A DNA stretch of 63,927 bases, counting the filler, from Basidiobolus ranarum (Eukaryota), in NCBI GenBank assembly GCA_040143965.1. It is 36 parts of 36 records of this genome, joined end to end, with 100 filler letters (N's around TTAATTAATTAA, not from the genome) between each part and the next. Parts side by side here need not be neighbours in the genome. Positions count along the whole stretch, not along the records: positions 19,634 to 21,315 come from JASJQH010004563.1; 35 more parts are not named here. One strand, given 5' to 3'. Both the position numbers and the translations under genes were made by a program. Shown in pieces: positions 9,297-62,619 of the stretch; positions within the stretch are counted from its first letter, which is position 1; each line of letters begins with the position of its first letter. The notes beneath the pieces were generated by a model. The model had not been told where the DNA came from. It made no database searches and worked only from the letters and a program-made list of their open reading frames with translations.

Positions 9297-10618
9297 TGTT
9301 TTGGTAAATCTTGATCACAAGGCAATGATCTTGCCTTTTCCATTATTGATCTGTTTGAATATTATGCTACTCCATTCTGCTGTGGGGAATGTGGCACTGT
9401 AGTCTGCTGCTTTATCCCATACATTGAGCAGAAGTTAGAGAAGAGTTTTGAGGTATATTCCCCGCCATTATCAGTATGGATAATCCTGATCTTTAGACCA
9501 GTTTCAGTCTCCACCATTGCTTTGAATTTCTTGAAAGTATCAAAGGCTTCAACCTTACTGGCCAGAGAGTTCAATTATGTATACTTTTTCTTATTAGCAA
9601 AAAAGGTCATAAAATACCTTTTTCTGCCTAAAGATTTTGTCTTCATTGGGCCATGCAAATATGAGTGTAGCATGCCCAATTTTCATCAATTTTGCTCTTT
9701 CCAGAGCCCATAAATGGATGTCTGTGTTGCCTACCATATAGGCAACCTTCACATAGCTCCAGATCTGGTGGAATTACAAAATGTAGTCCCAAAACAATCT
9801 TTTTTTTGATCACACATGTCATATTCTCAGCTTCTAGATGACCCAATCCACTTTGCCAGATTTCCAATCTATCTCTTCAGCTGTGTCAGTATTAACTTGT
9901 TCATATATTGGCCTAACATTTTGAAGTTTATACAAGATATTTTGCTTAGCTCCAGAAGCTATGTAATTCCCTTTTTGATACTTGATTGTATAGCCATTTT
10001 TATCAAAGTTAAAGCTATATCCCTCAGATGTAGCTTTACTCACTGATAACTAATTTTTGCTATCCCAGGCACATATAGCTCAATTTTCAGTGTCAAATAC
10101 ATGTTGCCAGAGATGCCCCCAAGATCCATTTCAATTTATCTCACTCCCAGAGCTTCTAGTGGCCAGTCATCTCTGATATAAACCTTCTTCTTTATTTTAG
10201 TTATGAGTGTTTTAAACCCGTTTCTTTGATTAGAGAGATGTTGTGAGGCTCCAGAATAAATATACCATGACCTAAAGTCTTTTTCAGAGGTCACTGATAG
10301 GGCAGAAATGAATGAAACTTCCTCTTTGGATGAAACCTGATTTGCTTGTTCTGACTTCCTACTTTTGTTGTAATTTCTTGATTTGCAATCTTTTATCTGG
10401 TGTCCTGGTTTGTTACAACCTTAACATAAACCTGGTTTCCTTCTGTTGTAATTTTTGTACTTGCCAAAGCTATGCTTTCCAGCTCCAAAAAGAGCCACTT
10501 CCTCAGATTTGATTTCCAAATTCTTTACTTCTCAGGTGTCAATCCACTAGCCTTTCCACCACAAACTCCAAAGACAACTTGTCAGATCTTGCTTCCAAAG
10601 TTGTGACCAAGTTTGAAT
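9297..10618 (-). pseudogene. Ty1/Copia gag-protease-integrase remnant (family also at 12503 and 62257)
   Basis: TDNGGEYTS..FC..GIKQQTTVPHSPQQNGVA, LGHL..CEGC. Confidence 0.9.
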
Positions 10619-16620: not shown

Positions 16621-17751
16621 GAAGCAACTTTGATTATTGAGGAGTGGAGAGTTCAATCCAATCTTAGCAACCATGTGTTTATTAGTTTTCTTACACTTTT
16701 ACCACAGTTGATTGGCAACTGTTGCTTGCCACCAACATGGTACAAGTGGAAAACACTTGTCAATTGTATGGCTTATAATACTCTGGTGATGAAACTACCT
16801 TCATGTCCAATTGGTTGTTTAGCTTTCACCAATGATCTGAAAAGCCTGATGTCATATACTGTTTTCATATTATTGACAATCACTGAATCAGGTAAATGTT
16901 GCTCATATTTGGCTTACATACCATTGATTCCCCATCTTAAAGTTTTAATGAAATCACCCATATATAGATCATTGATCCAATACTAAAGTACTCACCATAA
17001 AGCTGATGGTGTTACCAATATACTTGATGGCTACCACTACCAGAATCTGAAAAGTCAAGGTTTCTTTGAGAACAAGTATGATCATGCATTTGCATTGGCT
17101 CTGGATGGTTTCTTGCTAAACAAATAAACTGTTGGAAAGGCTTGCTGGCCAATAATATTAATCAACTTAAATCAAACTTGGTATAAGCCATAAGCCTGAG
17201 ATTACATTGTTAAAGGAGGGCTGCTGGGGCCAGAGCTTCCCATTAGGCACAATGTACTTACTACTCAACTGCATTCCAATACTACTTACTCAGCTCTACA
17301 GTGAAAAATTCTATATGAATGAGCCATTTGAGACACTATCAAAGTTTGAATCTATTGAACAAATGCTTGAAAATGTCAACATACCATCATATTTTACCAG
17401 GACTCCCATCACTATCCCCTCATCTAGGTGTTTATTCAATTGCAAGGACTGGAATCACTTCATTCATATATATTCAAGTGGAATCTTGAAAAGATTTCTG
17501 CCTGTGAAGTATTGCAACATTGGGAGTTGTTTGTTGACATTCTTAATATATTCTTATAGCATCAACTCACATTGACAGATCTCAGGCAGATACAGTGACT
17601 GTTCAAAGATTTTGTTATTGGATATGAAGAGCCTTATTATAGGTTTAAAGAAGATAGACTGAATCTATGCCAGTATTCAATACATTCCCTGCTGCATCTT
17701 TCACTATGCTTAGAGATTATAGGCCCTTGCTATACATTCTGGGAGTTCCCA
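16621..17751 (+). mobile_element. CACTA-type transposase remnant (Transposase_21-like core)
   Basis: CPIGCLAF, YIPLIPHL, ALALDGF..WPIILINLN, HSLLHL..IIGPCYTFWEFP. Confidence 0.9.
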
Positions 17752-18906: not shown

Positions 18907-19633
18907 AAAGTCAAGGTTTCTGTGAGAATACATATGATCATGCATTTGCATTGGCTGTGGATGGTTACTCACTAAACAAATATACCAATGGACTGGCTTA
19001 CTGGCCAATAATTTTAATCAACTTAAATCTTCCTCCTTCTGAACAGTAAAAGAGTCATAATATTTTGATGCTATCCATCATATATTGACCTAAATCACCA
19101 GTGGTTATAGTTAGCTTCTTGGAGCCTTTGATTGCAGAATTTGAACAGTTAGCTAATGGGGCTTGGATGGGAGAATATTTTATAAAAGTTAAAATCATTG
19201 AATGTATCAGCAACATCCCTGCCATCAGTAAACTTGGAGATTTTTGCAGGCACAATGCACTATCTTGCTGTAGATTCTGTCAAATCAATGGATTTACTCT
19301 GTCAGGTATACACATTACTACTATCCAAATACAACACTAAACTCCATGATTTTACCATCAAGAGTCCAGTCAGATTTTAACATGATCACTAACAACAATT
19401 CACAAAATAGTCAGTCTAACATCAAACTTGGTATTAGCCATAAGCCTAAGATTATATTGCTATACAGCAACTGTGCAAAGATTTTGTAATTGGATATGAA
19501 AAATTTTATTTTGGTTTTAAAGAAGACAGAATGNNNNNNNNNNNNNNNNNNNNNNNNNNNNNNNNNNNNNNNNNNNNTTAATTAATTAANNNNNNNNNNN
19601 NNNNNNNNNNNNNNNNNNNNNNNNNNNNNNNNN

Positions 19634-20144
19634 AAACTTGAAATGTTTAACAAGGTGTTTGATTTTAAGAAACTCAGACTAAACAGGTAAGATATTTGAG
19701 CATATGTGACACATAGTATGTAAAAATTCTTACTTACCAAGCTCTTGGGTATAGTAGCTTCCAAGACCTAAAAGATTCAGACAAGAAGACAAAATTTGCT
19801 TTATCAAACGAGTACGGAAGACTTTGCTCATTATTCCGACCAAGACGTCCCCGTAACACTGCTGGGAGAGGTTATGACCAGTGAAGACTTGGACAAGATC
19901 TCTCTTTGCGCATTAGATCCCAATCGTAATCAAGTATTCGCTGCCTCCTATGGTGATGGTGACACATTCATGTAACGCAAGATCATTTACTGAAGCGTAT
20001 TTCGGGTTAAATAGTGTCCAAGCTTGTCAGAGTTGTGGGATATTATGGCAACGCGATGTAAACGCTTCAAAAATTATTTTGAAGATTTCCAAAGACGTAA
20101 TCAGTGGTCACGGGTGCCCAACAGCGTTTTCTAGAAGCCAATAA
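19634..20144 (+). pseudogene. Fanzor1-like (eukaryotic TnpB) nuclease remnant, intron-containing, internally deleted
   Basis: RuvC-I-like LCALDPNRNQVFAASYGDG (D at 19916). Zinc finger plus RuvC-III HSCNARS...ACQSCGILWQRDVNASKII.KI....ISGHGCPTAFSR* (stop ends 20144). GTAAG..TAG intron about 19687-19757. RuvC-II segment missing. Confidence 0.78.
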
Positions 20145-20865
20145 CTTCTTTTATCATATATAATACATCGCCGTCTCGTACACGGTTTCTCTTTTCAAAG
20201 AGATTTAGATTTTTACAGGTAAAAAAGTCTGATAACCTCTTCTCATTCGTCTCAAACTAATTCTTTTGTCTGAATTTTATTTTCGTTTCATCCAAAAAAG
20301 GTAAGCTAAATATCTGAAAATTCATTTTGATTCGTCAAGAAAAAAAGTAACATCGTCCCAATTTAAAGCGTATAATACACCTACAATACACCTGAGAGGG
20401 ACTGGTTCTCTGAGAATTGTGGAGAGCCTTATGCTCGTATCATGAGTGCTGATACGAGTTCTGCCAGTGGATATCCTACCAGCTTATATCATACTGTGTT
20501 CAAGTGGTTATGGATGGTGATCATACTAGCCAACAATTGATTTGAATTTGAAAGTTTCCCTATATTGTACATTTACAATAAAGAATAAAATGATTTGCGA
20601 AACAGGTGAATTGTTACATAATTTTCTACGTATTGCTTGGCATACAGGTAACTGAAATTAACTCCATCGAAACACCAGGATATATGTGATAAATACCGAA
20701 GACTGCTAAAACCGAGACATAAAGGTTATTTATTCAATTAAACTACATTCCGTGCGTTATCATGTGCTACATGTCTAAAATTGAACTATATATAGAACAC
20801 CGACGTATTTGAGCACACAGTGGACATGTTGTACATGACAACATACATTAGTTTTGGGGGACGCG

Positions 20866-21315
20866 GACAAGGACTGGAAACAATGATAAGAGGCTAGAAG
20901 GCAGGAGAGTACTTGGGTATAGACCACAAGACAAAACAAGACAAGACTGGACAGGAAATATACTTGGGCAAGAATCTTTATTCATAACTGGCATTGATCA
21001 GACTGAGGTCTTATCAAGGAATACATGGGGCTTATATAGATATTGCAAGGTGAAACATAATATACTGAATAGGGAATATACTGTTGCCAGTTCAAGTGTT
21101 AGGATGCTGTGGACCACGAGGACCAATACAAAGAGGGATGATGTTGTTGAAATTAGCATTGCCTAAACACCTATATAGTCATATATAGCTTAGTACTTAG
21201 TTATCTTATAATTCACTAAGATATTATTAATTATTCTCAAATGCAATTTACTTAGAATACTTTTACCAACTTAGAAGTTCTCAGATATTTAGATTTTTCA
21301 AACTTGTGCTAGAAG
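20866..21315. repeat. Partial LTR-A (-) with nested Copia LTR-B starting at 21145
   Basis: LTR-A sequence interrupted by TGTTGAAATTAGCATTGCC. Confidence 0.85.
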
Positions 21316-21415
21316 NNNNNNNNNNNNNNNNNNNNNNNNNNNNNNNNNNNNNNNNNNNNTTAATTAATTAANNNNNNNNNNNNNNNNNNNNNNNNNNNNN
21401 NNNNNNNNNNNNNNN

Positions 21416-23010
21416 TAGCTAATATCATTGTATGTATTGGTGACACTCCTGCCATCAGTAAACTTGGAGGTTTTCATGGGCACAATGCACTATCTTGCTG
21501 TAGATTTTGTCAAATCAATGGCATTTATTCTATCAGGCATATGCATTAGTACTATTCAAATACAACACTAAACTCCATGATTTTACCATCAAGAGCCTGG
21601 TCAGATTACAACATGATCATTGATGTCAATTCATCAAATAGTCAGTCTAACATCAAACTTGGTATTGGCTGCAAGCCTAAGAATCTATTGCTCATGGGGA
21701 TCAGCTGGAGCTAGAGGTTCCATTAAGCACTATGCACTTACTATTCAACAACATTTCAATACTACTTACTCAGCTATATAGTGGAAAATTCAATATGAAT
21801 GAGCCATTTGAGATAGGATCAAAGTTTGAATCAATTGGGAAAATGCTTGAAAACATCCAGATACCATCATATTTTACCAGGACTCCCATCAATATCCACT
21901 CATATAGGCATTTATTTAAATGCAAAGACTGGAAGTATTGGATTTGTATACACTCAAGTGGAATCTTGAACAGATTTTTGCCTGATCAGTATTGGCAACA
22001 TTGAGAGTTGTTTGTTGATATTGTTAATATATTCTTATGGAATCAACTCACATTGGCAGATCTCAGGCAGATACAGCAACTGTGCAAAGATTGGGTAATT
22101 AGATACAAAGACTTCATTACAGGTTTAAAAAAGATGGACTGAATCCACACTGTTGTTCAATATATTCCCTGCTGCATCTTTCACAATGCTTAGAGATTAC
22201 AGGCTCTTGCTATACATTCTGGGAGTTCCTAATGGAGTGCACCTGTGGTGAAATGATGCCCCATGTGAAATTGTCAGTATTACCATATGCTAATCTGATT
22301 AACAATCTATCAGCAAAATCAGTGATGGATGTTATGCAATAGGTTAAGGAGTCTCCAGAGTATATCAACCTTCCAACAAAGGGCTCTTTTGAATGTGCTC
22401 ATGGGTTTTTGCATTGTTTGAGCACAATAACAGCAACAAAGCCCATTCCATGGACACAGTGTAAGTACCTCTATAATTGGACTAATATGCTTGTGTGATA
22501 ATCTGACTGTAAATTTAGGAAAGCTGCAACACAGACTTCTAGGTGAGATAGATTAAGATATGTGGTATTATTGTTTTAGCAATGGGGTAATCTATTCAAG
22601 CAATGATGCATCTACTTGTGGCAGGACATTTGTTGACTGCAAGTTGGGGATATATTGGCTGAATTCTTTGGGGGAATTTGCCAAACTCAAAGAGCTTATT
22701 CTAATTTTGAATGGTAACAAGAGTCAGCAATTTGCCAAGTGTCTGAGCTATTCAAAATTTCAGATGTTTAGCAATTTTTCCACTGTCAGTTTGCTGGTAA
22801 GGTATATTGACACTGTTGAGTGATGTCTAATCAGTCAAGTATGTACATATGTAGAGACTAAGCACAACAAGATTCTTGTATTTTTTGATCTTCATTACGG
22901 CTGGAATAAAAAGCCTAAAATATCTAAATTAAGGCATGCATATTAATTTGAATACCTACAGCAGTAAACCCAGTAATTAGATTTTGCAAAAATTGCCAGA
23001 TATTGAATAA
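21416..23010 (+). mobile_element. CACTA-type transposase remnant, central to 3' part
   Basis: GDTPAISKLG.F.GHNALSCCRFC, MHLLFNN, KDWKYW, FWEFLMECTCG. Confidence 0.9.
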
Positions 23011-37425: not shown

Positions 37426-39101
37426 AACCACCAATTCCTCTAATTCTCCAAACCACTTCCAACAGGATCCCAAATACTTTAACAGGTTATGAGCCCTGAG
37501 CTTGCACTCTCTGTAATATCTACTTCTCAAATTTATGGAACTTTTCCTTTTTCTGAAAAATTGGATGGGACCAACTATCAAGTTTGGAAAATTAAAATGA
37601 ATATGCTGCTGCAAGAAAAAGGACTTTGGGACACTGTTGTAGGAGAAGAAAACAATGCAAAACTATCTGAAACCAACGTATTGCTCCAGGTTAAAAAAGA
37701 ACAAAGTGCCGTCAACACAATTTGTCTTAATGTTAAAGACAAATTGCTAATTCAATGTTTAAGAGCTAAAACTGCCAAGAAGGTAGGAAAGCCTTGGAAG
37801 ACACCTACCAAACAAGTTCTGCTGTTTCTAAGAAGACAATTCTTTAACTTAAAGATGAAGCCAGGAGAAGACATTAAATCACTAATTAATAGAGTCACTA
37901 TTATAGTGGATGAAATGGCATGCATAGGAGTACCTACCACTGATCAAGATATCATAGTTACCGTCCTGAATAGCTTGCCACTCAAGTTTCAGAGCCTAGT
38001 AATGGCTCTAGAATCAAGAACTGAAATTTGCCCTTAAATTATGTATTTGGCGGACTTTGGGATAACAATCTATGCAAATCAGGACTCAACCAAAAGAATG
38101 AAGAAAATGCTTTAATAGGCTATGGGAAACCTTCCTATAAAGGTCAAAAGAACTTTAAGAAGAAGAGTAACACATTCTGTGATTACTGTAAAAGAACTGG
38201 CCATTTAAGCAAAGATTGTTTTAAAAGAATTGCAAAAGAAGAAAAACATACTGAATCTGGAAATGTAGTTACTACAGAAGATCACTTATTCATATCTGCT
38301 CTATCTATGACTACCAACAAGGATACTCAGACATGGTATATTGATTCTGGAGCTTCCCAACATTTCACAAATGAAAAACAATGGTTTGTGGAATATGAAG
38401 AAATCCCAATTGGAAAGGTTTTCATATGAGATGACTGCACATTGGATGCTATTGGAATGGGAACAATTCAAGTCAATTTAACTGGAGCTTATGAAGAGAA
38501 AGTTTATACTTTCAAGGATGTACTACATGTTCCAGATATTGCCAAAAATTTAATATCTGTGTTCAAGGCTATCTCAGAAGGGCTAAAATTCAATTTTGAT
38601 AAGTCAGGATGCACCATCACTGATCAAAATGGGAATTATTTAGCTTTGGGAGAAAAGGATCAGAACTTATACAAACTTACATATAATCCAAGAGGTTTAT
38701 GTGTAAATATAAGTTATTCCAATCAAGAAACTATTCAATTATGGCATAAGAGATTTGGCCATATTGGATTTGATTATTTGAGCAAAATGATCAAAAATCA
38801 CCTAATTTCTGGAATTCAAATTAACTGCCCAACCAAAATGGAAATTTGTGAGGGTTGTATATATGGAAAACAAGCCAGGCAACCATTCAAGAGCTCTGGT
38901 TTAATCAAATCTGTCAAAAAATTGGATCTAATTCATTCAGATTTGTGTGGACCTATGCAAAATTTATCTTTAGGTGGAAAAAGATATTTAATCACATTTA
39001 TTGATGATTATACAAGATACACTTGGGTCTACTTTATGGAAAGAAAAGAAGAAGCTCTCTCTATCTTTAGAGATTTTAAAACACTTGTGGAGACTGAAAC
39101 T
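37426..39101 (+). mobile_element. Copia element 5' region: LTR-B end, PBS, gag, protease, integrase
   Basis: PBS GGTTATGAGCCC at 37485-37496; KLDGTNYQVWK, CDYCKRTGHLSKDC, WYIDSGASQH, WHKRFGH, HSDLCGPM; only a few lesions. Confidence 0.95.
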
Positions 39102-44528: not shown

Positions 44529-45870
44529 AACACTTGTCAATTGTTTGACTTGAAATACTTCAGTAATTAAACTACCTTTATGTCTAAATGGTTGTTTGGC
44601 TTTCACTGGTGATCTGAAAAACCTGAAGTCATATCCTGTTTGCACCAAATTGGCAATCACTAAACAGGTAAATATTTTTCATATTTAGCTTGTATACCAT
44701 TGATTTCCTGTCTTCAATTTTTGATAGTACCACCCAAATATTGATCATTGATCCATTACTAAAGTACTCACCAGAGAGCTGATGGTATGACTTTTATACT
44801 TGAAGAATATCACTACCAGAATCTAAAAACTCAAGGTTTCTTTGAGAACAAATATGATCATGCACTTGCATTAGCTATGGATGATTTCTCACTAAACAAA
44901 TATGCCATTGGAAAGGCTTGCTGGCCAATAATTTTAATTAAATTAAATCTTCTTCCTTATGAGCAGTTTAAAAGTTATAATACTTTGATATTATTAATCA
45001 AATCTGGACCTAAATCAACAGTTCTTGTAGATAGCTTCTTAGAGCCTTTGATTGTGGAATTTGAATGGTTATCTAATGGGGTTCAGGTGGGTGAATATTT
45101 TTCTAAAGCCAATATCATTGTAAGTATTGGTGACACTCCTGCCATCAGTAAACTTGTAGCTTTTTGCAGGCACAATGCTCCGTCTTCTTGTAGATTCTGT
45201 CAGGTCAATGGAGTTTACTCTACCTGGCATACACATTATTAATATCCAAATAGAACACCAAACTCCATGATTTTGCCATCAAAAGCTGGCTCAGATTTGA
45301 ACATGATCACTGATATCTTTTGACCAAGTAGTCAGTCCAACATCAAACTTGGGATTAGGTGTAAGCCTAAGATTATTTTGCTAAAGGGGATCAGCTGGAG
45401 CCAGTGCTTCCCATTAGGCACTATGCACTTGCTTTTTAACAATATTCAAATACTACTTACTCTGCTATATAGTAGAAAATTCAATATGAGTGAGCCATTC
45501 TAGATAGGATCAAAGTTTAAATTGATTGGAAAAATGCTTGAAAATTTCAAGATACCATGATTTTTTTTCAAGACTCCCATCAATATCCACTCATCTAGGT
45601 GTTTATTCAAATATAAAGATTGGAAGTATTGTCTTTGTATATATCCAAGTGAAATTGTTAAAGGATTTCTGCCTGATAAGTATTGGCAACATTGCAAGTT
45701 GTTTGTGGATATTGTTAATATATTCTTATGGTATCAACTCATATTGGCAGATCTCAGACAAATACAGCAAATGTGCAAGTTTTTGTAATTGGATATGAAA
45801 AACTTTATTACTGGTTTAAAGAAGATAGACTGAATCTATGCAGATATTTAATAAATTTCCTGCTGTATCT
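44529..45870 (+). mobile_element. CACTA-type transposase catalytic core remnant (followed by LTR-B, 45871-46203)
   Basis: ALAMDDF..WPIILIKLNLLP..F...SGPK...DSFLEPLI.E...L.NG...GDTPAISKL..F..HNA...CRFC. Confidence 0.9.
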
Positions 45871-53397: not shown

Positions 53398-54188
53398 CCA
53401 CCAAGGTAATATACAACCTTCACGATGGCAGCGAAGAAAATAACTGCAGGTAAGACGGTAAAGACAAAAATACCGATGTCGGCGATATCGTCACTGGTTA
53501 CAAATGCCAAGCCAGATTTAGAGAAATGGAGAAGAGTGGAGCACATGTTTGATACCCAGCTGAAAATATCGTATCCGACAGATGTCTTGAGGATAAACAA
53601 ACCGAGGAGGAATTGTAACAGCACACCAACAACAACAGTTCTCCAAGGAATACCTTTGCGATTGTCGGATGTTGCATATAGTAGCACAATAAATACAACG
53701 AGACCAAGGAGTGATCTTAGTCTGTCTAAACGACTGCTATGTCCCTCTTGAACAGGAAGAGCAAGAGTAACAGATACAATCAAGGCAACTGGAAGTAGGA
53801 CACCCAAGATGAGACGGATTCTTTCGGGAATCACCGACACGACTTTCATGATTGTACCAAAAAGCATTCCCAAAGGCTTGGAAAGCACTCTGGTAGTCAC
53901 GTGGTAAAACATGAGCTTTAATGAAACAAAAGCCCAAAGCAACGAAAGGACCAAGGTGTCCTTTCCGTGCAATACCCAGGCTCCTATCATCATCCCGGTA
54001 ATGATCAAGAACATGAGGAGATGGAACCATAAGCGATAGCGACGGTAAAATGTCGGCGGTAGATCATCTAGTGAGGTGTCAACCTCTTTCTTTTCCTCGG
54101 GATAAGAGTCTTTTGCACTTACAGGGAGAAAAGAGGTAGGATGAGACTCAGAAGCCCTGGGAGCTTCGATGGTGTTGTCCACAGTCAT
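53398..54188 (-). CDS. Concentrative H+/Na+ nucleoside cotransporter (CNT/SLC28), 5' part
   Basis: IPWRTVVVGVLLQFLLGLFILKT.VGYDIF, FVFTVLPAVIFFAAIV.V.YYLG; truncated by the contig end. Confidence 0.93.
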
Positions 54189-54856
54189 TAGGAAGTAGTA
54201 GTTGAAGAAGTAGATAGTATGGATAGTTACTTGGAGCACAATACTTTTATACAAATAGCTGTGTTGGTCTCGACATGGCGAATCGGAACTATAGTGATGA
54301 TTGCCATTTTTAGAATCAATTAAGAATATTTACCATTCCAAAAAAGATTTGCGTATATAGCTATTATTAGTATTTATGGTTTGGTTGGATACTTGGATAG
54401 GAGAATTAAAAGGACAGACTTGGACTATGCTCAAGGCGACGGAACAAACACCGTGTTCTCAAACCTTGGCTACCACGTTGGTCAATCCCTTGGTTAATAC
54501 CTGAGTAAGTAGGGAACAGGGCTCTAGCAAAAACCCTGAACACGTTAGATTACCATTTATAGTCAAATTGGCAAGTCAATGTTGGTAAAATGGAAATACT
54601 TAATATATATCCATATTAAGCAGTTTCTCCTTGATTTCGAACAGTTTGTGGCAGAAAGCTTAAAAAGGTCACTATGCGCACATATTAAAGATGAATCCAA
54701 GCGGTAATATTGTGTGGAGCTCAGACGAGTCCAAGCAGTAATATTGTGTGGAGTAAAGATGAATCCAAACAGTATTTGCGTCCAATCATCTGTGGATTTC
54801 TAACTCTAATATCCATGACATTAGATTTGGCATAATTGCGATGATACCAAATGATC

Positions 54857-56941: not shown

Positions 56942-58146
56942 GCGGGGTCAAGAAGGCCCATGTTTTGAGGACTATAATAATTAGGGAGTATTATATGAAC
57001 ACCAGCACTGGGAGCAACAATCTCCGCTTGTCTAGGCTCGTCCATTTGACGAAGGCCATCAGTGAAGGGACCAGTGGCATTGATAACGCCTTTGGCCCTA
57101 ACAGTCCACTCTTCGCCAGTAAAGGCGTCTCTAACTACAGCACCACGGACTACCTCTTTAGTTTTATCATCAGGAGAAATTTCCTTAATCAGGCTGACAA
57201 CTTCAACATGATTTGCTACGACAGCACCATACGCAACGGCTGTAAGGGCAATGGCCACGTTCATTCGAGAATCATTGTGTTGACCGTCGTAATAGACCAG
57301 GGCTCCAACCAAGTTCTCTTCTTTGAGCATTGGAAAGGCCTCCAATGCCTTGCTTTTACTCAAAATATAACTACTTTCTAGTTTCTCTTTCCCGGCAAAG
57401 AGATCATAGAACTTACATCCCACCCAATAATAAGGTAGTTGCCACCATCTGGAAACAGGTAGCATGTCATAAATAAATGTATTCCATGTGAAAGTACTCT
57501 AAATAGTGAAAAAAAACTCACTTGTAGACCGGCAACATAATAGGAAGTTGATAACTTAAATAAGGGGCGATCTTCAGGAATGTTGCTCTTTCATGAAGCG
57601 CTTCGGTTACAAGTTTGTATTGTTCATAATCAAGTTCCATAAACGCTTTTTCAAGATAACGTACACCTCCATGAACCAACTTGGTAGATCTAGAGGAAGT
57701 GCCTGAAGAAAAATTCATTTAGCTAAGTTGTTTTGAGAGTAATAGAAAGGAAAAATGGTACCTGAAGCGAAATCATCACGCTCCACCAAAGCAACTTTTA
57801 GTCCTCTGGTAGCAGCGTCTAATGCAACGCCAGTTCCAGTAGCCCCACCACCGACGATTAGTAAATCAAAAGGCGGCTCGCTTTGTTCAACTCTTGGCCG
57901 TTCAGACCCATCCTTTCGGAGTCCCTTCAGTTGATTGATAACTTGTTGACGATTAGGGGGAGACCAGAAGTTTTTAGGTCTATTGGGGTCGATGTCATCC
58001 AAAGCTTGTGGCTGAGCATCGGCATAAGCCTGCGACAGGAAAGGAGGTCTAGATTGTCGTTGGTTAAGATAATAATAAGAAGTGGCAACACCTGTGGCTA
58101 CAAGAGAGCTGCAAAGGTAAGGTTTGCTTCTTAAACGAGCCCACAT
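56942..58146 (-). CDS. GUT2: Mitochondrial FAD-dependent glycerol-3-phosphate dehydrogenase, exons 58146-57762, 57702-57522, 57448-<56942
   Basis: [70 protein letters not shown] introns of 59 and 73 nt. Confidence 0.96.
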
Positions 58147-58781
58147 GAACTACAGGATCCAATGAAAAGGGTATGTGAAAAAGTATATGACTGAGGGTCT
58201 GTATGATCATATTTATATATGATTTGGTCAATCCACCTCAATGTCTAGAAAGGGATGACCTACTATCACTGGCACACGTTGCACGTGAATAAGACTGGGA
58301 ATCTCAGCAAAGAAGGGATATTTGTGTGTATCTCTGTATATTTCCAAAATGAGAACTATGCAGATTCTACGTGCTATCAAGAGCAAATTACGGGGATCTT
58401 GAAACCATTGTAGCATTGAGGTTGATTGCTACCCGGTAGCAAAGCAAATACGCCATGGCACACGGCCCTAAGGCAATTTCAAAAGGCGCCAGATCTCCAG
58501 CGCACTCATAGTTAGACTTGAATACTAATTGGAATAGAGAAGGTGGTTTTGAAACTAATGAAAAAGAAAAACTGAGGAGACTAACGAGTATAGGTGACGC
58601 TGTGCCTAAATATNNNNNNNNNNNNNNNNNNNNNNNNNNNNNNNNNNNNNNNNNNNNTTAATTAATTAANNNNNNNNNNNNNNNNNNNNNNNNNNNNNNN
58701 NNNNNNNNNNNNNACAGGGATTGGTAATGATTTGAGCTTTGTCATATATTCATTGGTGGATGATGTTTTAGACCTTGTCCC

Positions 58782-62156: not shown

Positions 62157-62619
62157 NNNNNNNNNNNNNNNNNNNNNNNNNNNNNNNNNNNNNNNNNNNN
62201 TTAATTAATTAANNNNNNNNNNNNNNNNNNNNNNNNNNNNNNNNNNNNNNNNNNNNAAGAACCTGAGGCAGTGGCTCTTGTTGGAGCTGGAAAGCATAGC
62301 TTTGGCAAGTACAAAGGTTACAAAAGAAGGAAACCAGGTTTATGCTATGATTGTAACAAACCAGGACACCAGATAAAAGATTGCAAATCAAGAAATTACA
62401 ACAAAAATGAGAAGTTGGAACAAGTAAATCAGGTTTCAACCAAAGAGGAAGTTTTATTCATTTCTGCCCTGTCAATGACCTCTGAACAAGACTATAAGTT
62501 GTGGTATATTGATTTTGGAGCCTCTCAAAATTTCTCTAATCAATAAAACTGGTTTAAGACACTCAAAACTGACATAAACAAGAAGATCTATATGGGAGAT
62601 GACTGGCCATTAGAAGCTC

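What the first reader, a model, noticed from the sequence alone, without database searches (positions are those of the whole stretch)
19634..20144. Fanzor (eukaryotic TnpB/OMEGA-type RNA-guided nuclease) remnant with a spliceosomal intron
Seen: a hydrophobic strand ending in ALDPNRNQVFAASYGDG, and after a frame change HSC...ACQSCGILWQRDVNASKIILKISKDVISGHGCPTAFSRSQ*. Upstream, KLEMFNKVFDFKKLRLN is followed by a GTAAG...TAG intron (about 19687-19757). Known: hhhDPG/N is the RuvC-I motif, and CxxC..W.RD.NA..I....G..P..F.R is the zinc finger/RuvC-III tail of TnpB/Fanzor1 proteins in fungal transposons. Inference: this is an internally deleted copy lacking RuvC-II, implying a Fanzor family in this genome. 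Unlike the other TEs here it retains CpGs, so it is low-copy or escaped silencing. The ORF track shows only the last 64 aa.
Basis: partly seen in the sequence, partly recalled or inferred. Interest (0 to 1): 0.85.

Follow-up and report, generated by a model that had tools for sequence, protein, structure and literature searches.

The report
Broken Fanzor1 nuclease gene remnant
This is a dead, internally deleted fragment of a Fanzor1 gene (a transposon-borne RNA-guided DNA cutter of eukaryotes) at the edge of a small unplaced contig; it is a real but ordinary relic of a known kind.

Summary
The 62-residue tail (19956-20141) finds 26 proteins at E<=1e-3 among 1.84 billion (best 5e-11, 69% identity). 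All 13 of its close relatives that carry a source name are from Mucorales. A profile of that family hits the two solved Fanzor1 structures first: SpuFz1 at 5e-12 and PpFz1 at 3.8e-8.

The upstream part is weak piece by piece. The RuvC-I strand aligns with P=0.029. Jointly it is significant: 0 of 350 real-sequence chunks and 0 of 3000 shuffles reach its score.

About 206 codons are missing between RuvC-I and the zinc finger, including the catalytic Glu, and there is one extra base at 19964. The copy is dead.

New points:
- The window is a chain of 36 unplaced contigs, so the copy is cut at a contig start (19634).
- The normal CpG content continues about 720 bp past the gene, so it belongs to the locus rather than the element.
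- About 70 nt after the stop codon are conserved with a Rhizopus copy, which makes them a candidate omega-RNA scaffold.

The intron and a genome-wide family could not be tested. The kind is known and interest is low.

The parts
19534..19633 (.). Artificial linker (N44-TTAATTAATTAA-N44) between two unplaced contigs. It marks the 5' edge of the contig that holds the remnant.
   Evidence: 35 identical linkers split the window into 36 pieces of 1688 down to 1671 bp, sorted by size.
19634..19686 (+). Exon-like piece of the Fanzor1 N-terminal half (KLEMFNKVFDFKKLRLN), cut upstream by the contig start.
   Evidence: tblastn gives 10 of 15 identical to P0028 133-147 and to P0029 405-419, and 11 of 21 to P0031 132-152. 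That last hit is the top HSP of 2578 (27.3 bits, E 0.026 against the whole window). It is collinear with the rest of the remnant. Joint test.
19687..19757 (+). Candidate 71-nt spliceosomal intron (GTAAGA ... CTTAC ... AG; an alternative acceptor ends at 19754). Unverified.
   Evidence: Sequence. In the exon frame, 3 stops fall inside it and a fourth lies just after it (19769-71). That is 4 stops in the 29 codons 19685-19771, against none in the next 67 codons. No homology in any frame. No RNA data.
19835..19963 (+). RuvC-I segment (SDQDVPVTLLGEVMTSEDLDKISLCALDPNRNQVFAASYGDGD). The catalytic Asp codon is at 19916-19918.
   Evidence: The only hhalign hit falls on P0028 209-228, the IDPGRK..FTAA.GLGD strand (45% identity over 20 columns, P 0.029). 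tblastn to P0028 212-234 gives 23.9 bits, rank 7 of 2578 HSPs. P0030 401-448 matches at 33% over 49 residues. A small HMM on its own did not single this segment out (3.1 bits).
19964..19964 (+). Deletion joint with one extra base (a frame shift). About 206 codons of the relatives are missing here, including the FGDG strand and the DEF(K)TS motif with the catalytic Glu.
   Evidence: The N side ends at P0028 residue 228. The C side starts at P0028 residue 435. Alignment A1 puts VTHSC directly after the DEF.TS column.
19965..20144 (+). TNB zinc-ribbon, RuvC-III and Fanzor1 C-terminal tail. Cys codons lie at 19971-73, 20025-27 and 20034-36, so 3 of the usual 4 remain. The RuvC-III Asp is at 20055-57, the GHGCPTAFSRSQ tail follows, and the stop is at 20142-44.
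   Evidence: Whole-library phmmer: 26 hits at E<=1e-3, best 5e-11. hhalign against the family profile: probability 98.9, E 1.6e-17. Pfam PF07282: E 0.0012, 19.4 bits, below the 26.3 cut-off. The PDB matches fall at the very C-termini of L79, Cas12m, SpuFz1 and TranC.
20145..20222 (+). Conserved non-coding stretch right after the stop codon. It is a candidate omega-RNA scaffold or right-end region, with two small hairpins (20170-20186 and 20188-20203).
   Evidence: The tail of the Rhizopus microsporus model P0009 matches 20151-20219 read through the stop (E 1.5e-5 against the whole window). The tail of P0005 matches the same DNA in another frame (E 0.11, its best hit). Relatives end their ORF where this copy does. 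Fold z-score is -1.74. No Rfam family matches.
20223..20864 (.). Flank of unknown nature with normal CpG content. No family, tRNA or repeat match was found.
   Evidence: CpG observed/expected is 1.01 (20145-20500) and 0.93 (20501-20864). No match to other pieces. No tRNA. No Rfam match.
20865..21315 (.). CpG-depleted repeats shared with other contigs of the window. They tie the contig to the host genome.
   Evidence: blastn gives 85-95% identity to pieces 3, 5, 9, 10, 16, 26, 30 and 32. CpG observed/expected is 0.07.

Best explanation
Window 19634-20222 is the 3' portion of a dead copy of a Fanzor1 element. Fanzor1 is the eukaryotic, transposon-borne relative of TnpB, an omega-RNA-guided RuvC nuclease. 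The copy belongs to the subfamily so far seen in Mucorales fungi.

What is shown: the copy keeps a short piece of the N-terminal half, the RuvC-I strand with its Asp, most of the zinc ribbon, RuvC-III with its Asp, and the Fanzor1-type C-terminal tail and stop. An internal deletion of about 206 codons removed the middle of the RuvC domain. The loss includes the alternative catalytic Glu in the DEF(K)TS motif and the first Cys of the zinc finger. One extra base at the joint shifts the frame. The copy cannot make an active nuclease.

What is inferred: such internal deletions are the usual way cut-and-paste elements decay into non-autonomous derivatives. The roughly 75 nt after the stop codon, conserved with a Rhizopus copy, are the remains of the omega-RNA scaffold and right end. 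In live relatives that RNA would guide the nuclease to the DNA flanking the element. The fragment kept its CpGs because it sits in a low-copy stretch that the host's CpG-destroying process, which has hit the repeats, does not reach.
For: 1. C-terminal part. phmmer of 19956-20141 against 1.84 billion proteins gives 26 hits at E<=1e-3, the best 5e-11 at 69% identity. Relatives carry DEF.TS, CxxC..CxxC, WQRDxNA and G.GRP..F.R. Five of the 6 relatives scanned pass the Pfam PF07282 cut-off; the sixth, the 74-aa P0001, stays below it at 20.4 bits. hhalign to the family profile gives probability 98.9, E 1.6e-17.

2. Family identity. The A2 profile hits the two solved Fanzor1 structures first in the PDB: SpuFz1 (8gkh) at 5e-12 and Parasitella Fanzor 1 (9cf0) at 3.8e-8. 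TranC, Fanzor2 L79, TnpB, Cas12m and Cas12f follow. The window tail aligns with the GHGRPEVFSRS end of SpuFz1.

3. Upstream part. For 19634-19958 against the N-terminal parts of P0028, P0029 and P0031, the best local score is 59 and the two-part collinear score is 97. None of 350 real-sequence chunks reaches these (maxima 57 and 82). None of 3000 dinucleotide shuffles does either (maxima 58 and 86). hhalign puts the RuvC-I strand exactly on the family's IDPGRK strand.

4. Deletion. Family positions 229-434 of P0028 have no counterpart.

5. Rearranged RuvC-II. The FGDG strand, with the DEF Glu 42 residues later (nearly invariant F384/G385, invariant D426/E427), fits the description in Jiang et al. 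2023 (PMC10530073, passages read).

6. Post-stop conservation. SpuFz1 has a 75-nt omega-RNA scaffold between its stop codon and its right inverted repeat (Saito et al. 2023, PMC10432273, section 7 read).

7. Host origin of the contig. Its 3' 451 bp are repeats shared with 8 other pieces.
Against: The RuvC-I piece is weak on its own. hhalign gives P 0.029 and probability 1.7%. A small HMM gave it 3.1 bits, rank 9 of 3194 fragments. Pfam found nothing in it.

The window tail by itself stays below the Pfam cut-off (19.4 against 26.3 bits). It ranks Fanzor2 L79 and Cas12m above SpuFz1 in the PDB.

Two word-index searches with the window peptides found nothing.

The omega-RNA reading rests on one clear relative (P0009). 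The folding z-scores are unremarkable (-1.7).

The deletion joint could be an assembly artefact of a 1.68-kb unplaced contig. No reads could be laid on it.
Confidence: 0.85

Rival explanations
1. The fragment is a non-autonomous 'ghost' derivative that is still used. It would keep the right end and omega-RNA scaffold and be mobilised, or supply guide RNA, in trans for intact Fanzor1 copies elsewhere in the genome.
For: The post-stop stretch is conserved with a Rhizopus copy. CpGs are intact. Spizellomyces has 134 ghost loci that keep the right-end region (PMC10432273, section 7).
Against: No second copy lies in the window. No inverted repeat or left end is available because the contig is cut. 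The fold is not unusually stable. No expression data could be used.
Confidence: 0.07
2. The apparent internal deletion, or the whole contig, is an artefact. It could be a collapsed or chimeric assembly of short reads, or a stray piece from another fungus joined to host repeats.
For: The contig is a 1.68-kb unplaced piece. All named close relatives are Mucorales. CpG content changes abruptly at 20864/20865.
Against: Identity to any database protein is at most 69%, so it is not a known contaminant. The frame shift and degenerate Cys fit a decayed copy. The 3' repeats match 8 other pieces at 85-95%. Seven of the 36 contigs share the normal CpG level.
Confidence: 0.06
3. It is not Fanzor1 but a remnant of another TnpB-type gene (Fanzor2/IS607-type, viral, or bacterial TnpB), or a chance zinc-finger look-alike.
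For: With the window tail alone, the PDB ranking puts Fanzor2 L79 (E 0.022) and Cas12m (0.023) above SpuFz1 (0.14).
Against: The nearest relatives at 1e-7 to 5e-11 are eukaryotic proteins whose family profile hits the two Fanzor1 structures first. The tail motif is Fanzor1-like. The metagenome loci found with the RD.NA.KN motif are only distant, at 25-42%.
Confidence: 0.02

Closest known systems
Mucorales Fanzor1-like proteins, unnamed in the literature I saw. Examples: P0001 (Cokeromyces recurvatus), P0002/P0003/P0009 (Rhizopus microsporus), P0030 (Parasitella parasitica, 716 aa), P0029 (Mucor plumbeus, 745 aa), P0027 (Mycotypha africana).
   Same: 47-69% identity over the zinc-ribbon, RuvC-III and tail region. 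The ORF ends at the same place. Both share the FDF.KLR piece and the DPxR..F.AA.G strand. The post-stop stretch is conserved with P0009.
   Different: The window copy lacks about 206 residues, including the catalytic Glu and one zinc-finger Cys. It is frame-shifted and is cut at a contig start. Its host is unknown and may not be a Mucorales fungus.
Spizellomyces punctatus Fanzor1 (SpuFz1, PDB 8GKH) and the Spu-1 elements with their 'ghost' derivatives (Saito et al. 2023, PMC10432273).
   Same: Best PDB hit of the family profile (5e-12). The same W.RD ... GHG.P..FSRS tail. [quoted passage not shown]
   Different: Only distant in sequence. phmmer of P0030 against the PDB finds nothing at E<=1e-3. 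Inverted repeats and RNA are not shown here.
Parasitella parasitica Fanzor 1 (PDB 9CF0).
   Same: Second-best PDB hit of the family profile (3.8e-8). Both the DPGRR RuvC-I strand and the DEF.TS ... W.RD ... RP.LFSR end are aligned.
   Different: It is a different Fanzor1 lineage from P0030 of the same species. It is intact and active, according to the entry title and the abstract of PMC11423790 (search listing only).
Bacterial IS200/IS605 TnpB and Cas12f.
   Same: The same Pfam TNB domain and RuvC-III motif.
   Different: Far weaker matches (4.6e-4 to 0.25). Canonical RuvC-II. No Fanzor1 tail.

Membership tests
Fanzor1 (eukaryotic TnpB-like omega-RNA-guided nuclease) | Sequence homology of the TNB zinc-ribbon and RuvC-III region to family members | tested here: met
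   (best E 5e-11). (hhalign E 1.6e-17). (the family profile hits SpuFz1 and PpFz1 first). On its own, the Pfam hit stays below the cut-off.
Fanzor1 (eukaryotic TnpB-like omega-RNA-guided nuclease) | RuvC-I strand with the catalytic Asp | tested here: met
   The Asp codon is at 19916-18 in LDPNRNQVFAASYGDGD. It aligns to the family's IDPGRK..FTAA.GLGD strand (P 0.029). The joint upstream test gives 0 of 350 and 0 of 3000. It is weak when taken alone.
Fanzor1 (eukaryotic TnpB-like omega-RNA-guided nuclease) | RuvC-II region with the rearranged (alternative) catalytic Glu | tested here: not met
   The FGDG strand and the DEF.TS motif of the relatives have no counterpart. They fall in the deletion between 19963 and 19965. 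The rearrangement is described in PMC10530073.
Fanzor1 (eukaryotic TnpB-like omega-RNA-guided nuclease) | RuvC-III Asp in W.RD.NA | tested here: met
   WQRDVNA with the Asp codon at 20055-57. R33 and N36 are invariant and D34 is nearly invariant in A1.
Fanzor1 (eukaryotic TnpB-like omega-RNA-guided nuclease) | Four-Cys zinc ribbon (CxxC ... CxxC) | tested here: not met
   Only 3 Cys remain. The first knuckle reads T-H-S-C.
Fanzor1 (eukaryotic TnpB-like omega-RNA-guided nuclease) | Intact open reading frame | tested here: not met
   There is a frame shift at 19964, there are stops upstream of 19772, and the 5' half lies beyond the contig edge.
Fanzor1 (eukaryotic TnpB-like omega-RNA-guided nuclease) | Omega-RNA encoded at or after the 3' end of the ORF, abutting the right end | tested here: inconclusive
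   The post-stop stretch 20151-20219 is conserved with P0009 (E 1.5e-5). The fold z-score is only -1.74. No Rfam family matches. No relatives' DNA and no RNA reads were available.
Fanzor1 (eukaryotic TnpB-like omega-RNA-guided nuclease) | Location inside a transposon with terminal inverted repeats or an associated transposase | not testable with these tools
   The contig is cut at 19634. No convincing inverted repeat lies inside it. No genome is held.
Fanzor1 (eukaryotic TnpB-like omega-RNA-guided nuclease) | Spliceosomal introns (frequent, not obligatory) | tested here: inconclusive
   GT..AG signals at 19687-19757 and a cluster of stops fit an intron. There is no homology support and no RNA data.
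Fanzor2 / prokaryotic TnpB | Closest relatives are IS607-type, viral or prokaryotic proteins | tested here: not met
   The named close relatives are all Mucorales, 13 of 13. In the family profile search, Fanzor2 L79 scores 1.8e-4 and TnpB 4.6e-4, behind the two Fanzor1 structures.

The most novel reading that the evidence does not exclude
The host may not be a Mucorales fungus. Its repeats are almost free of CpG, which I recall as typical of other fungal lineages rather than Mucorales; this is not tested. If so, this fragment would be the trace of a horizontal transfer of a Mucorales-type Fanzor1 element. The conserved 75 nt after the stop would then define the omega-RNA scaffold of a Fanzor1 subfamily that nobody has characterised, possibly surviving here as a ghost element in a CpG-protected niche.
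Probability: 0.12. Interest if true: 0.45.

Novelty: new member of a known kind. Interest (0 to 1): 0.2.

Why it matters
It matters little on its own, because dead and partial Fanzor copies are common where Fanzors occur. S. punctatus has 42 Fanzor loci, only 19 of them full-length, plus 134 ghost loci (PMC10432273).

It is useful in three ways:
- It flags that this genome had, or still has, a Mucorales-type Fanzor1 element, which is worth a whole-genome search for intact copies.
- It gives a first hint of the conserved post-stop RNA region of that subfamily.
- It serves as a natural marker: a low-copy transposon relic that escaped the CpG-destroying process that hit the repeats around it.

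Tried and rejected
- The word-index protein search with each window peptide, 'longer' lengths, found nothing.
- The own-genome search is not possible for this window. Copy number, intron and deletion joint therefore stay untested.
- The metagenome scan with the tail alignment returned 10 loci. All are only distant TnpB-like relatives (25-42% identity, RuvC-II to the end), and none resembles the 3' flank.
- A small HMM of the region before and around RuvC-I (8 sequences) did not single the window out (3.1 bits). My first chain-of-HSPs statistic did not discriminate. I replaced it with local-alignment scores tested against real-sequence and shuffled nulls.
- I first thought HSCNARSFTEAYFGLNS continued the RuvC-I side, matching H.IRRCSTKEYY.LTGS. 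I rejected this. The zinc-knuckle side aligns better: 47-49% identity over 57-59 residues to P0002 and P0003.
- A look for homology inside 19687-19835 in all three frames gave only noise-level scores.
- Rfam and tRNA scans of the contig were empty. Folding gave z-scores of +0.30 to -1.92.
- Two protein-atlas look-ups of host gene fragments gave no usable hint about the host lineage.
- Earlier findings of this scan held nothing on this genome or sequence. The word search returned unrelated Fanzor and TnpB relics in other organisms.
- P0033, a 637-aa 'member' of one cluster, is unrelated low-complexity protein.

Full report
**Setting**

The window is not one stretch of a chromosome. Thirty-five identical linkers (44 N, TTAATTAATTAA, 44 N) split it into 36 pieces of 1688 down to 1671 bp, sorted by size. 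It is a chain of small unplaced contigs. The finding lies at the very start of piece 12 (19634-21315). What precedes 19634 is a linker and an unrelated contig, and the feature is cut on its 5' side.

Twenty-nine of the 36 pieces have CpG observed/expected of 0.19 or less. Seven pieces (12, 14, 19, 28, 31, 33, 34) have 0.60-0.77. The CpG-poor pieces carry Ty3/chromovirus, Ty1/copia and Tnp2-type transposase remains.

**Observation**

- KLEMFNKVFDFKKLRLN at 19634-19684.
- A 67-codon open stretch at 19772-19972, ending ...ISLCALDPNRNQVFAASYGDGDTFM.
- A 75-codon open stretch in the next frame at 19917-20141, ending ...CQSCGILWQRDVNASKIILKISKDVISGHGCPTAFSRSQ, followed by a stop.

GTAAGA follows the first peptide at 19687, and AG dinucleotides end at 19754 and 19757.

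**The C-terminal part is a TnpB/Fanzor tail**

- Pfam gives only a sub-threshold hit to Cas12f1-like_TNB: E 0.0012, 19.4 bits against a cut-off of 26.3.
- Against the PDB, the peptide matches the extreme C-termini of several TnpB-superfamily proteins: mimivirus TnpB-like L79 (E 0.022), Cas12m (0.023), SpuFz1 (0.14, including its GHGRPEVFSRS end) and TranC (0.3). A few antibody chains appear as noise.
- The decisive result is the whole-library phmmer with 19956-20141. It gives 26 proteins at E<=1e-3, the best at 5e-11 and 69% identity. Three of the 26 (P0006, P0019, P0025) are long repetitive proteins with several matched stretches and no Fanzor motifs, so I take them as spurious.
- The real hits carry DEF(K/R)TS, CxxC ... 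CxxC, WQRD.NA and G.GRP..F.R.
- Of the 20 hits I looked up, 13 carry a source name. All 13 are Mucorales: Cokeromyces, Rhizopus microsporus, Helicostylum, Apophysomyces and Mycotypha.
- Starting from P0024, I found 6 longer relatives of 498-745 aa. Five are named, from Mycotypha, Mucor, Parasitella and two Rhizopus species.
- Five of the 6 relatives I scanned pass Pfam's cut-off for PF07282 (33.6-42.3 bits). The 74-aa P0001 does not (20.4 bits).

**The family is Fanzor1**

A profile of 12 family members (A2) hits SpuFz1 first in the PDB (8gkh, 5e-12) and Parasitella parasitica Fanzor 1 second (9cf0, 3.8e-8). TranC (about 2e-6), Fanzor2 L79 (1.8e-4), TnpB (4.6e-4), Cas12m and Cas12f follow. The alignment to PpFz1 covers both the DPGRR RuvC-I strand and the DEF.TS ... 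W.RD ... FSR end.

The family has FGDG where canonical TnpB has its RuvC-II Glu, and an invariant DEF 42 residues later. This fits the rearranged catalytic site with an alternative Glu 'approximately 45 residues away' that Jiang et al. 2023 describe for Fanzors (PMC10530073, passages read).

hhalign of the window tail against A2 gives probability 98.9 and E 1.6e-17.

**The upstream part**

On its own it is weak:
- Pfam finds nothing.
- The PDB gives only noise.
- A small HMM gave the RuvC-I stretch 3.1 bits, rank 9 of 3194 fragments.
- hhalign's single hit gives probability 1.7% and P 0.029, but it lies exactly on the family's RuvC-I strand: LCALDPNRNQVFAASYGDGD against PAFIDPGRKSVFTAAVGLGD, P0028 209-228.

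In a tblastn of 9 N-terminal parts against all 36 pieces, the top HSP of 2578 is P0031 132-152 on 19634-19696 (27.3 bits, E 0.026). The matches of P0029 and P0028 to the same place rank 3rd and 5th, and the RuvC-I HSP ranks 7th. The other top HSPs are CCHC knuckles of retrotransposon gag genes.

I then scored the 325 nt upstream of the tail (19634-19958) against the N-terminal parts of P0028, P0029 and P0031. The best local score is 59 and the best two-part collinear score is 97.
- 0 of 350 equally long chunks of the other 35 pieces, both strands, reach either value (maxima 57 and 82).
- 0 of 3000 dinucleotide shuffles do (means 33.9 and 60.0, maxima 58 and 86).

Both upstream pieces lie on the same strand as the tail. 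They are in the right order and at about the right distance: 78 codons here against 62-65 in the relatives. I accept them as homologous.

**The deletion**

The N side of the homology ends at P0028 residue 228. The C side begins at residue 435, with the window's Cys on the second Cys of the first zinc knuckle. In the DNA the two sides are separated by a single extra base (19964), which shifts the frame.

About 206 residues are therefore missing. They include the FGDG strand, the DEF Glu and one zinc-finger Cys. The copy keeps both Asp codons (19916-18, 20055-57) but cannot encode an active nuclease.

**The intron**

The 71 nt at 19687-19757 have a good donor (AG|GTAAGA), a CTTAC about 20 nt before the acceptor, and two possible acceptors. 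In the exon frame there are 4 stops in the 29 codons from 19685 to 19771, and none in the following 67 codons. This fits a non-coding insert.

Three points count against a firm call:
- Removing 68 or 71 nt changes the frame, so one more frame shift would be needed before 19882.
- No frame shows homology to the relatives between 19687 and about 19835.
- The alignment to P0031 even runs a few residues into the 'intron'.

Fanzor genes often have introns (PMC10530073), so the idea is reasonable. I put it at about 0.4. It needs RNA reads or a second copy.

**After the stop codon**

Relatives end their ORF where this copy does. P0001 ends ...FTREQ, P0030 ...FRRSK and P0023 ...YSRD.

Even so, the tail of the Rhizopus microsporus model P0009, which reads on, matches 20151-20219 at 52% over 23 residues. 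With the tail alone against the whole window, the E-value is 1.5e-5. The tail of P0005 has its best hit on the same DNA in a different frame (E 0.11). P0016 shares only KDLDFYR (E 0.64), and the Mycotypha tail is not significant.

The conservation is therefore in the DNA, not in a protein extension. [quoted passage not shown] By analogy, I read 20145-20222 as the remains of the scaffold and right end.

This is inference. The predicted fold has two small hairpins and a z-score of only -1.74 (9 of 200 shuffles fold as well). Rfam has no match. I had no DNA of relatives for a covariation test, because the metagenome scan gave only distant TnpB-like loci.

**CpG**

CpG observed/expected by segment:
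- 19771-20144: 1.03
- 20145-20500: 1.01
- 20501-20864: 0.93
- 20865-21315: 0.07

The last segment consists of repeats shared at 85-95% with 8 other pieces. The simplest reading is that the process that removes CpGs here acts on repeats, and that this relic is low-copy. In the window it has no second copy: with 32 query proteins, only piece 12 is hit at E<0.03.

**What remains open**

- The host lineage could not be determined. Whether a Mucorales-type element here reflects descent or transfer is therefore unknown.
- Copy number, inverted repeats, partner transposase, intron and RNA are untested.
- The joint could in principle be an assembly artefact.

**Verdict**

This is a real, correctly recognised, dead Fanzor1 remnant. 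It is a new member of a known kind and of low interest in itself. Its modest value is as a pointer to a Fanzor1 subfamily whose guide-RNA region has not been described in the papers I read: sections 5 and 7 of PMC10432273, and passages of PMC10530073. I saw the other papers only as search listings.

Noticed in passing
window 1-63927: The window is an artificial chain of 36 unplaced contigs (1688 to 1671 bp, sorted by size) joined by N44-TTAATTAATTAA-N44 linkers. Neighbouring pieces are not neighbours in the genome, so any finding that spans a linker is an artefact.
   Followed up: yes
all 36 pieces: CpG content is sharply bimodal. Twenty-nine pieces have observed/expected of 0.00-0.19, and these are transposon remains. 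Seven pieces (12, 14, 19, 28, 31, 33, 34) have 0.60-0.77. Inside piece 12 the switch is abrupt at 20864/20865. This looks like a repeat-targeted CpG-destroying process.
   Followed up: partly
window 44763-45239 (+); similar ORFs at 17171-17575, 18909-19340, 21364-22004: A Tnp2/CACTA-type transposase (Pfam PF02992, E 3.2e-12) recurs in several pieces, all CpG-depleted and full of stops.
   Followed up: partly
window 56944-58149 (-) and 53398-54329 (-): There are two host gene fragments on CpG-normal pieces. One is an FAD-dependent oxidoreductase that I read from the motifs as a glycerol-3-phosphate-dehydrogenase-like protein. The other is a concentrative nucleoside transporter (PF01773, E 2.6e-26).
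   Followed up: partly
window 38139-38261, 62307-62435, 10334-10429: The N-terminal CCHC knuckles of the full-length Mucorales Fanzor1 proteins (CKDCKEPGHY...) resemble the gag zinc knuckles of retrotransposon remains in pieces 22, 36 and 6 (E 0.11-0.7). It is a shared motif type, not evidence of further Fanzor copies.
   Followed up: no
window 20433-20459: A 10-bp perfect hairpin (CUCGUAUCAU ... loop ... complementary arm) lies in the unexplained CpG-normal flank. The 101-nt fold around it has a z-score of -1.92. No family match.
   Followed up: no
P0004, P0023 (Rhizopus microsporus and an unlooked-up source): Several database 'proteins' of the Mucorales family are themselves short or internally gapped models, and 19 of the 26 hits are shorter than 150 aa. 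Decayed or mis-predicted copies seem to be common in that family too.
   Followed up: no
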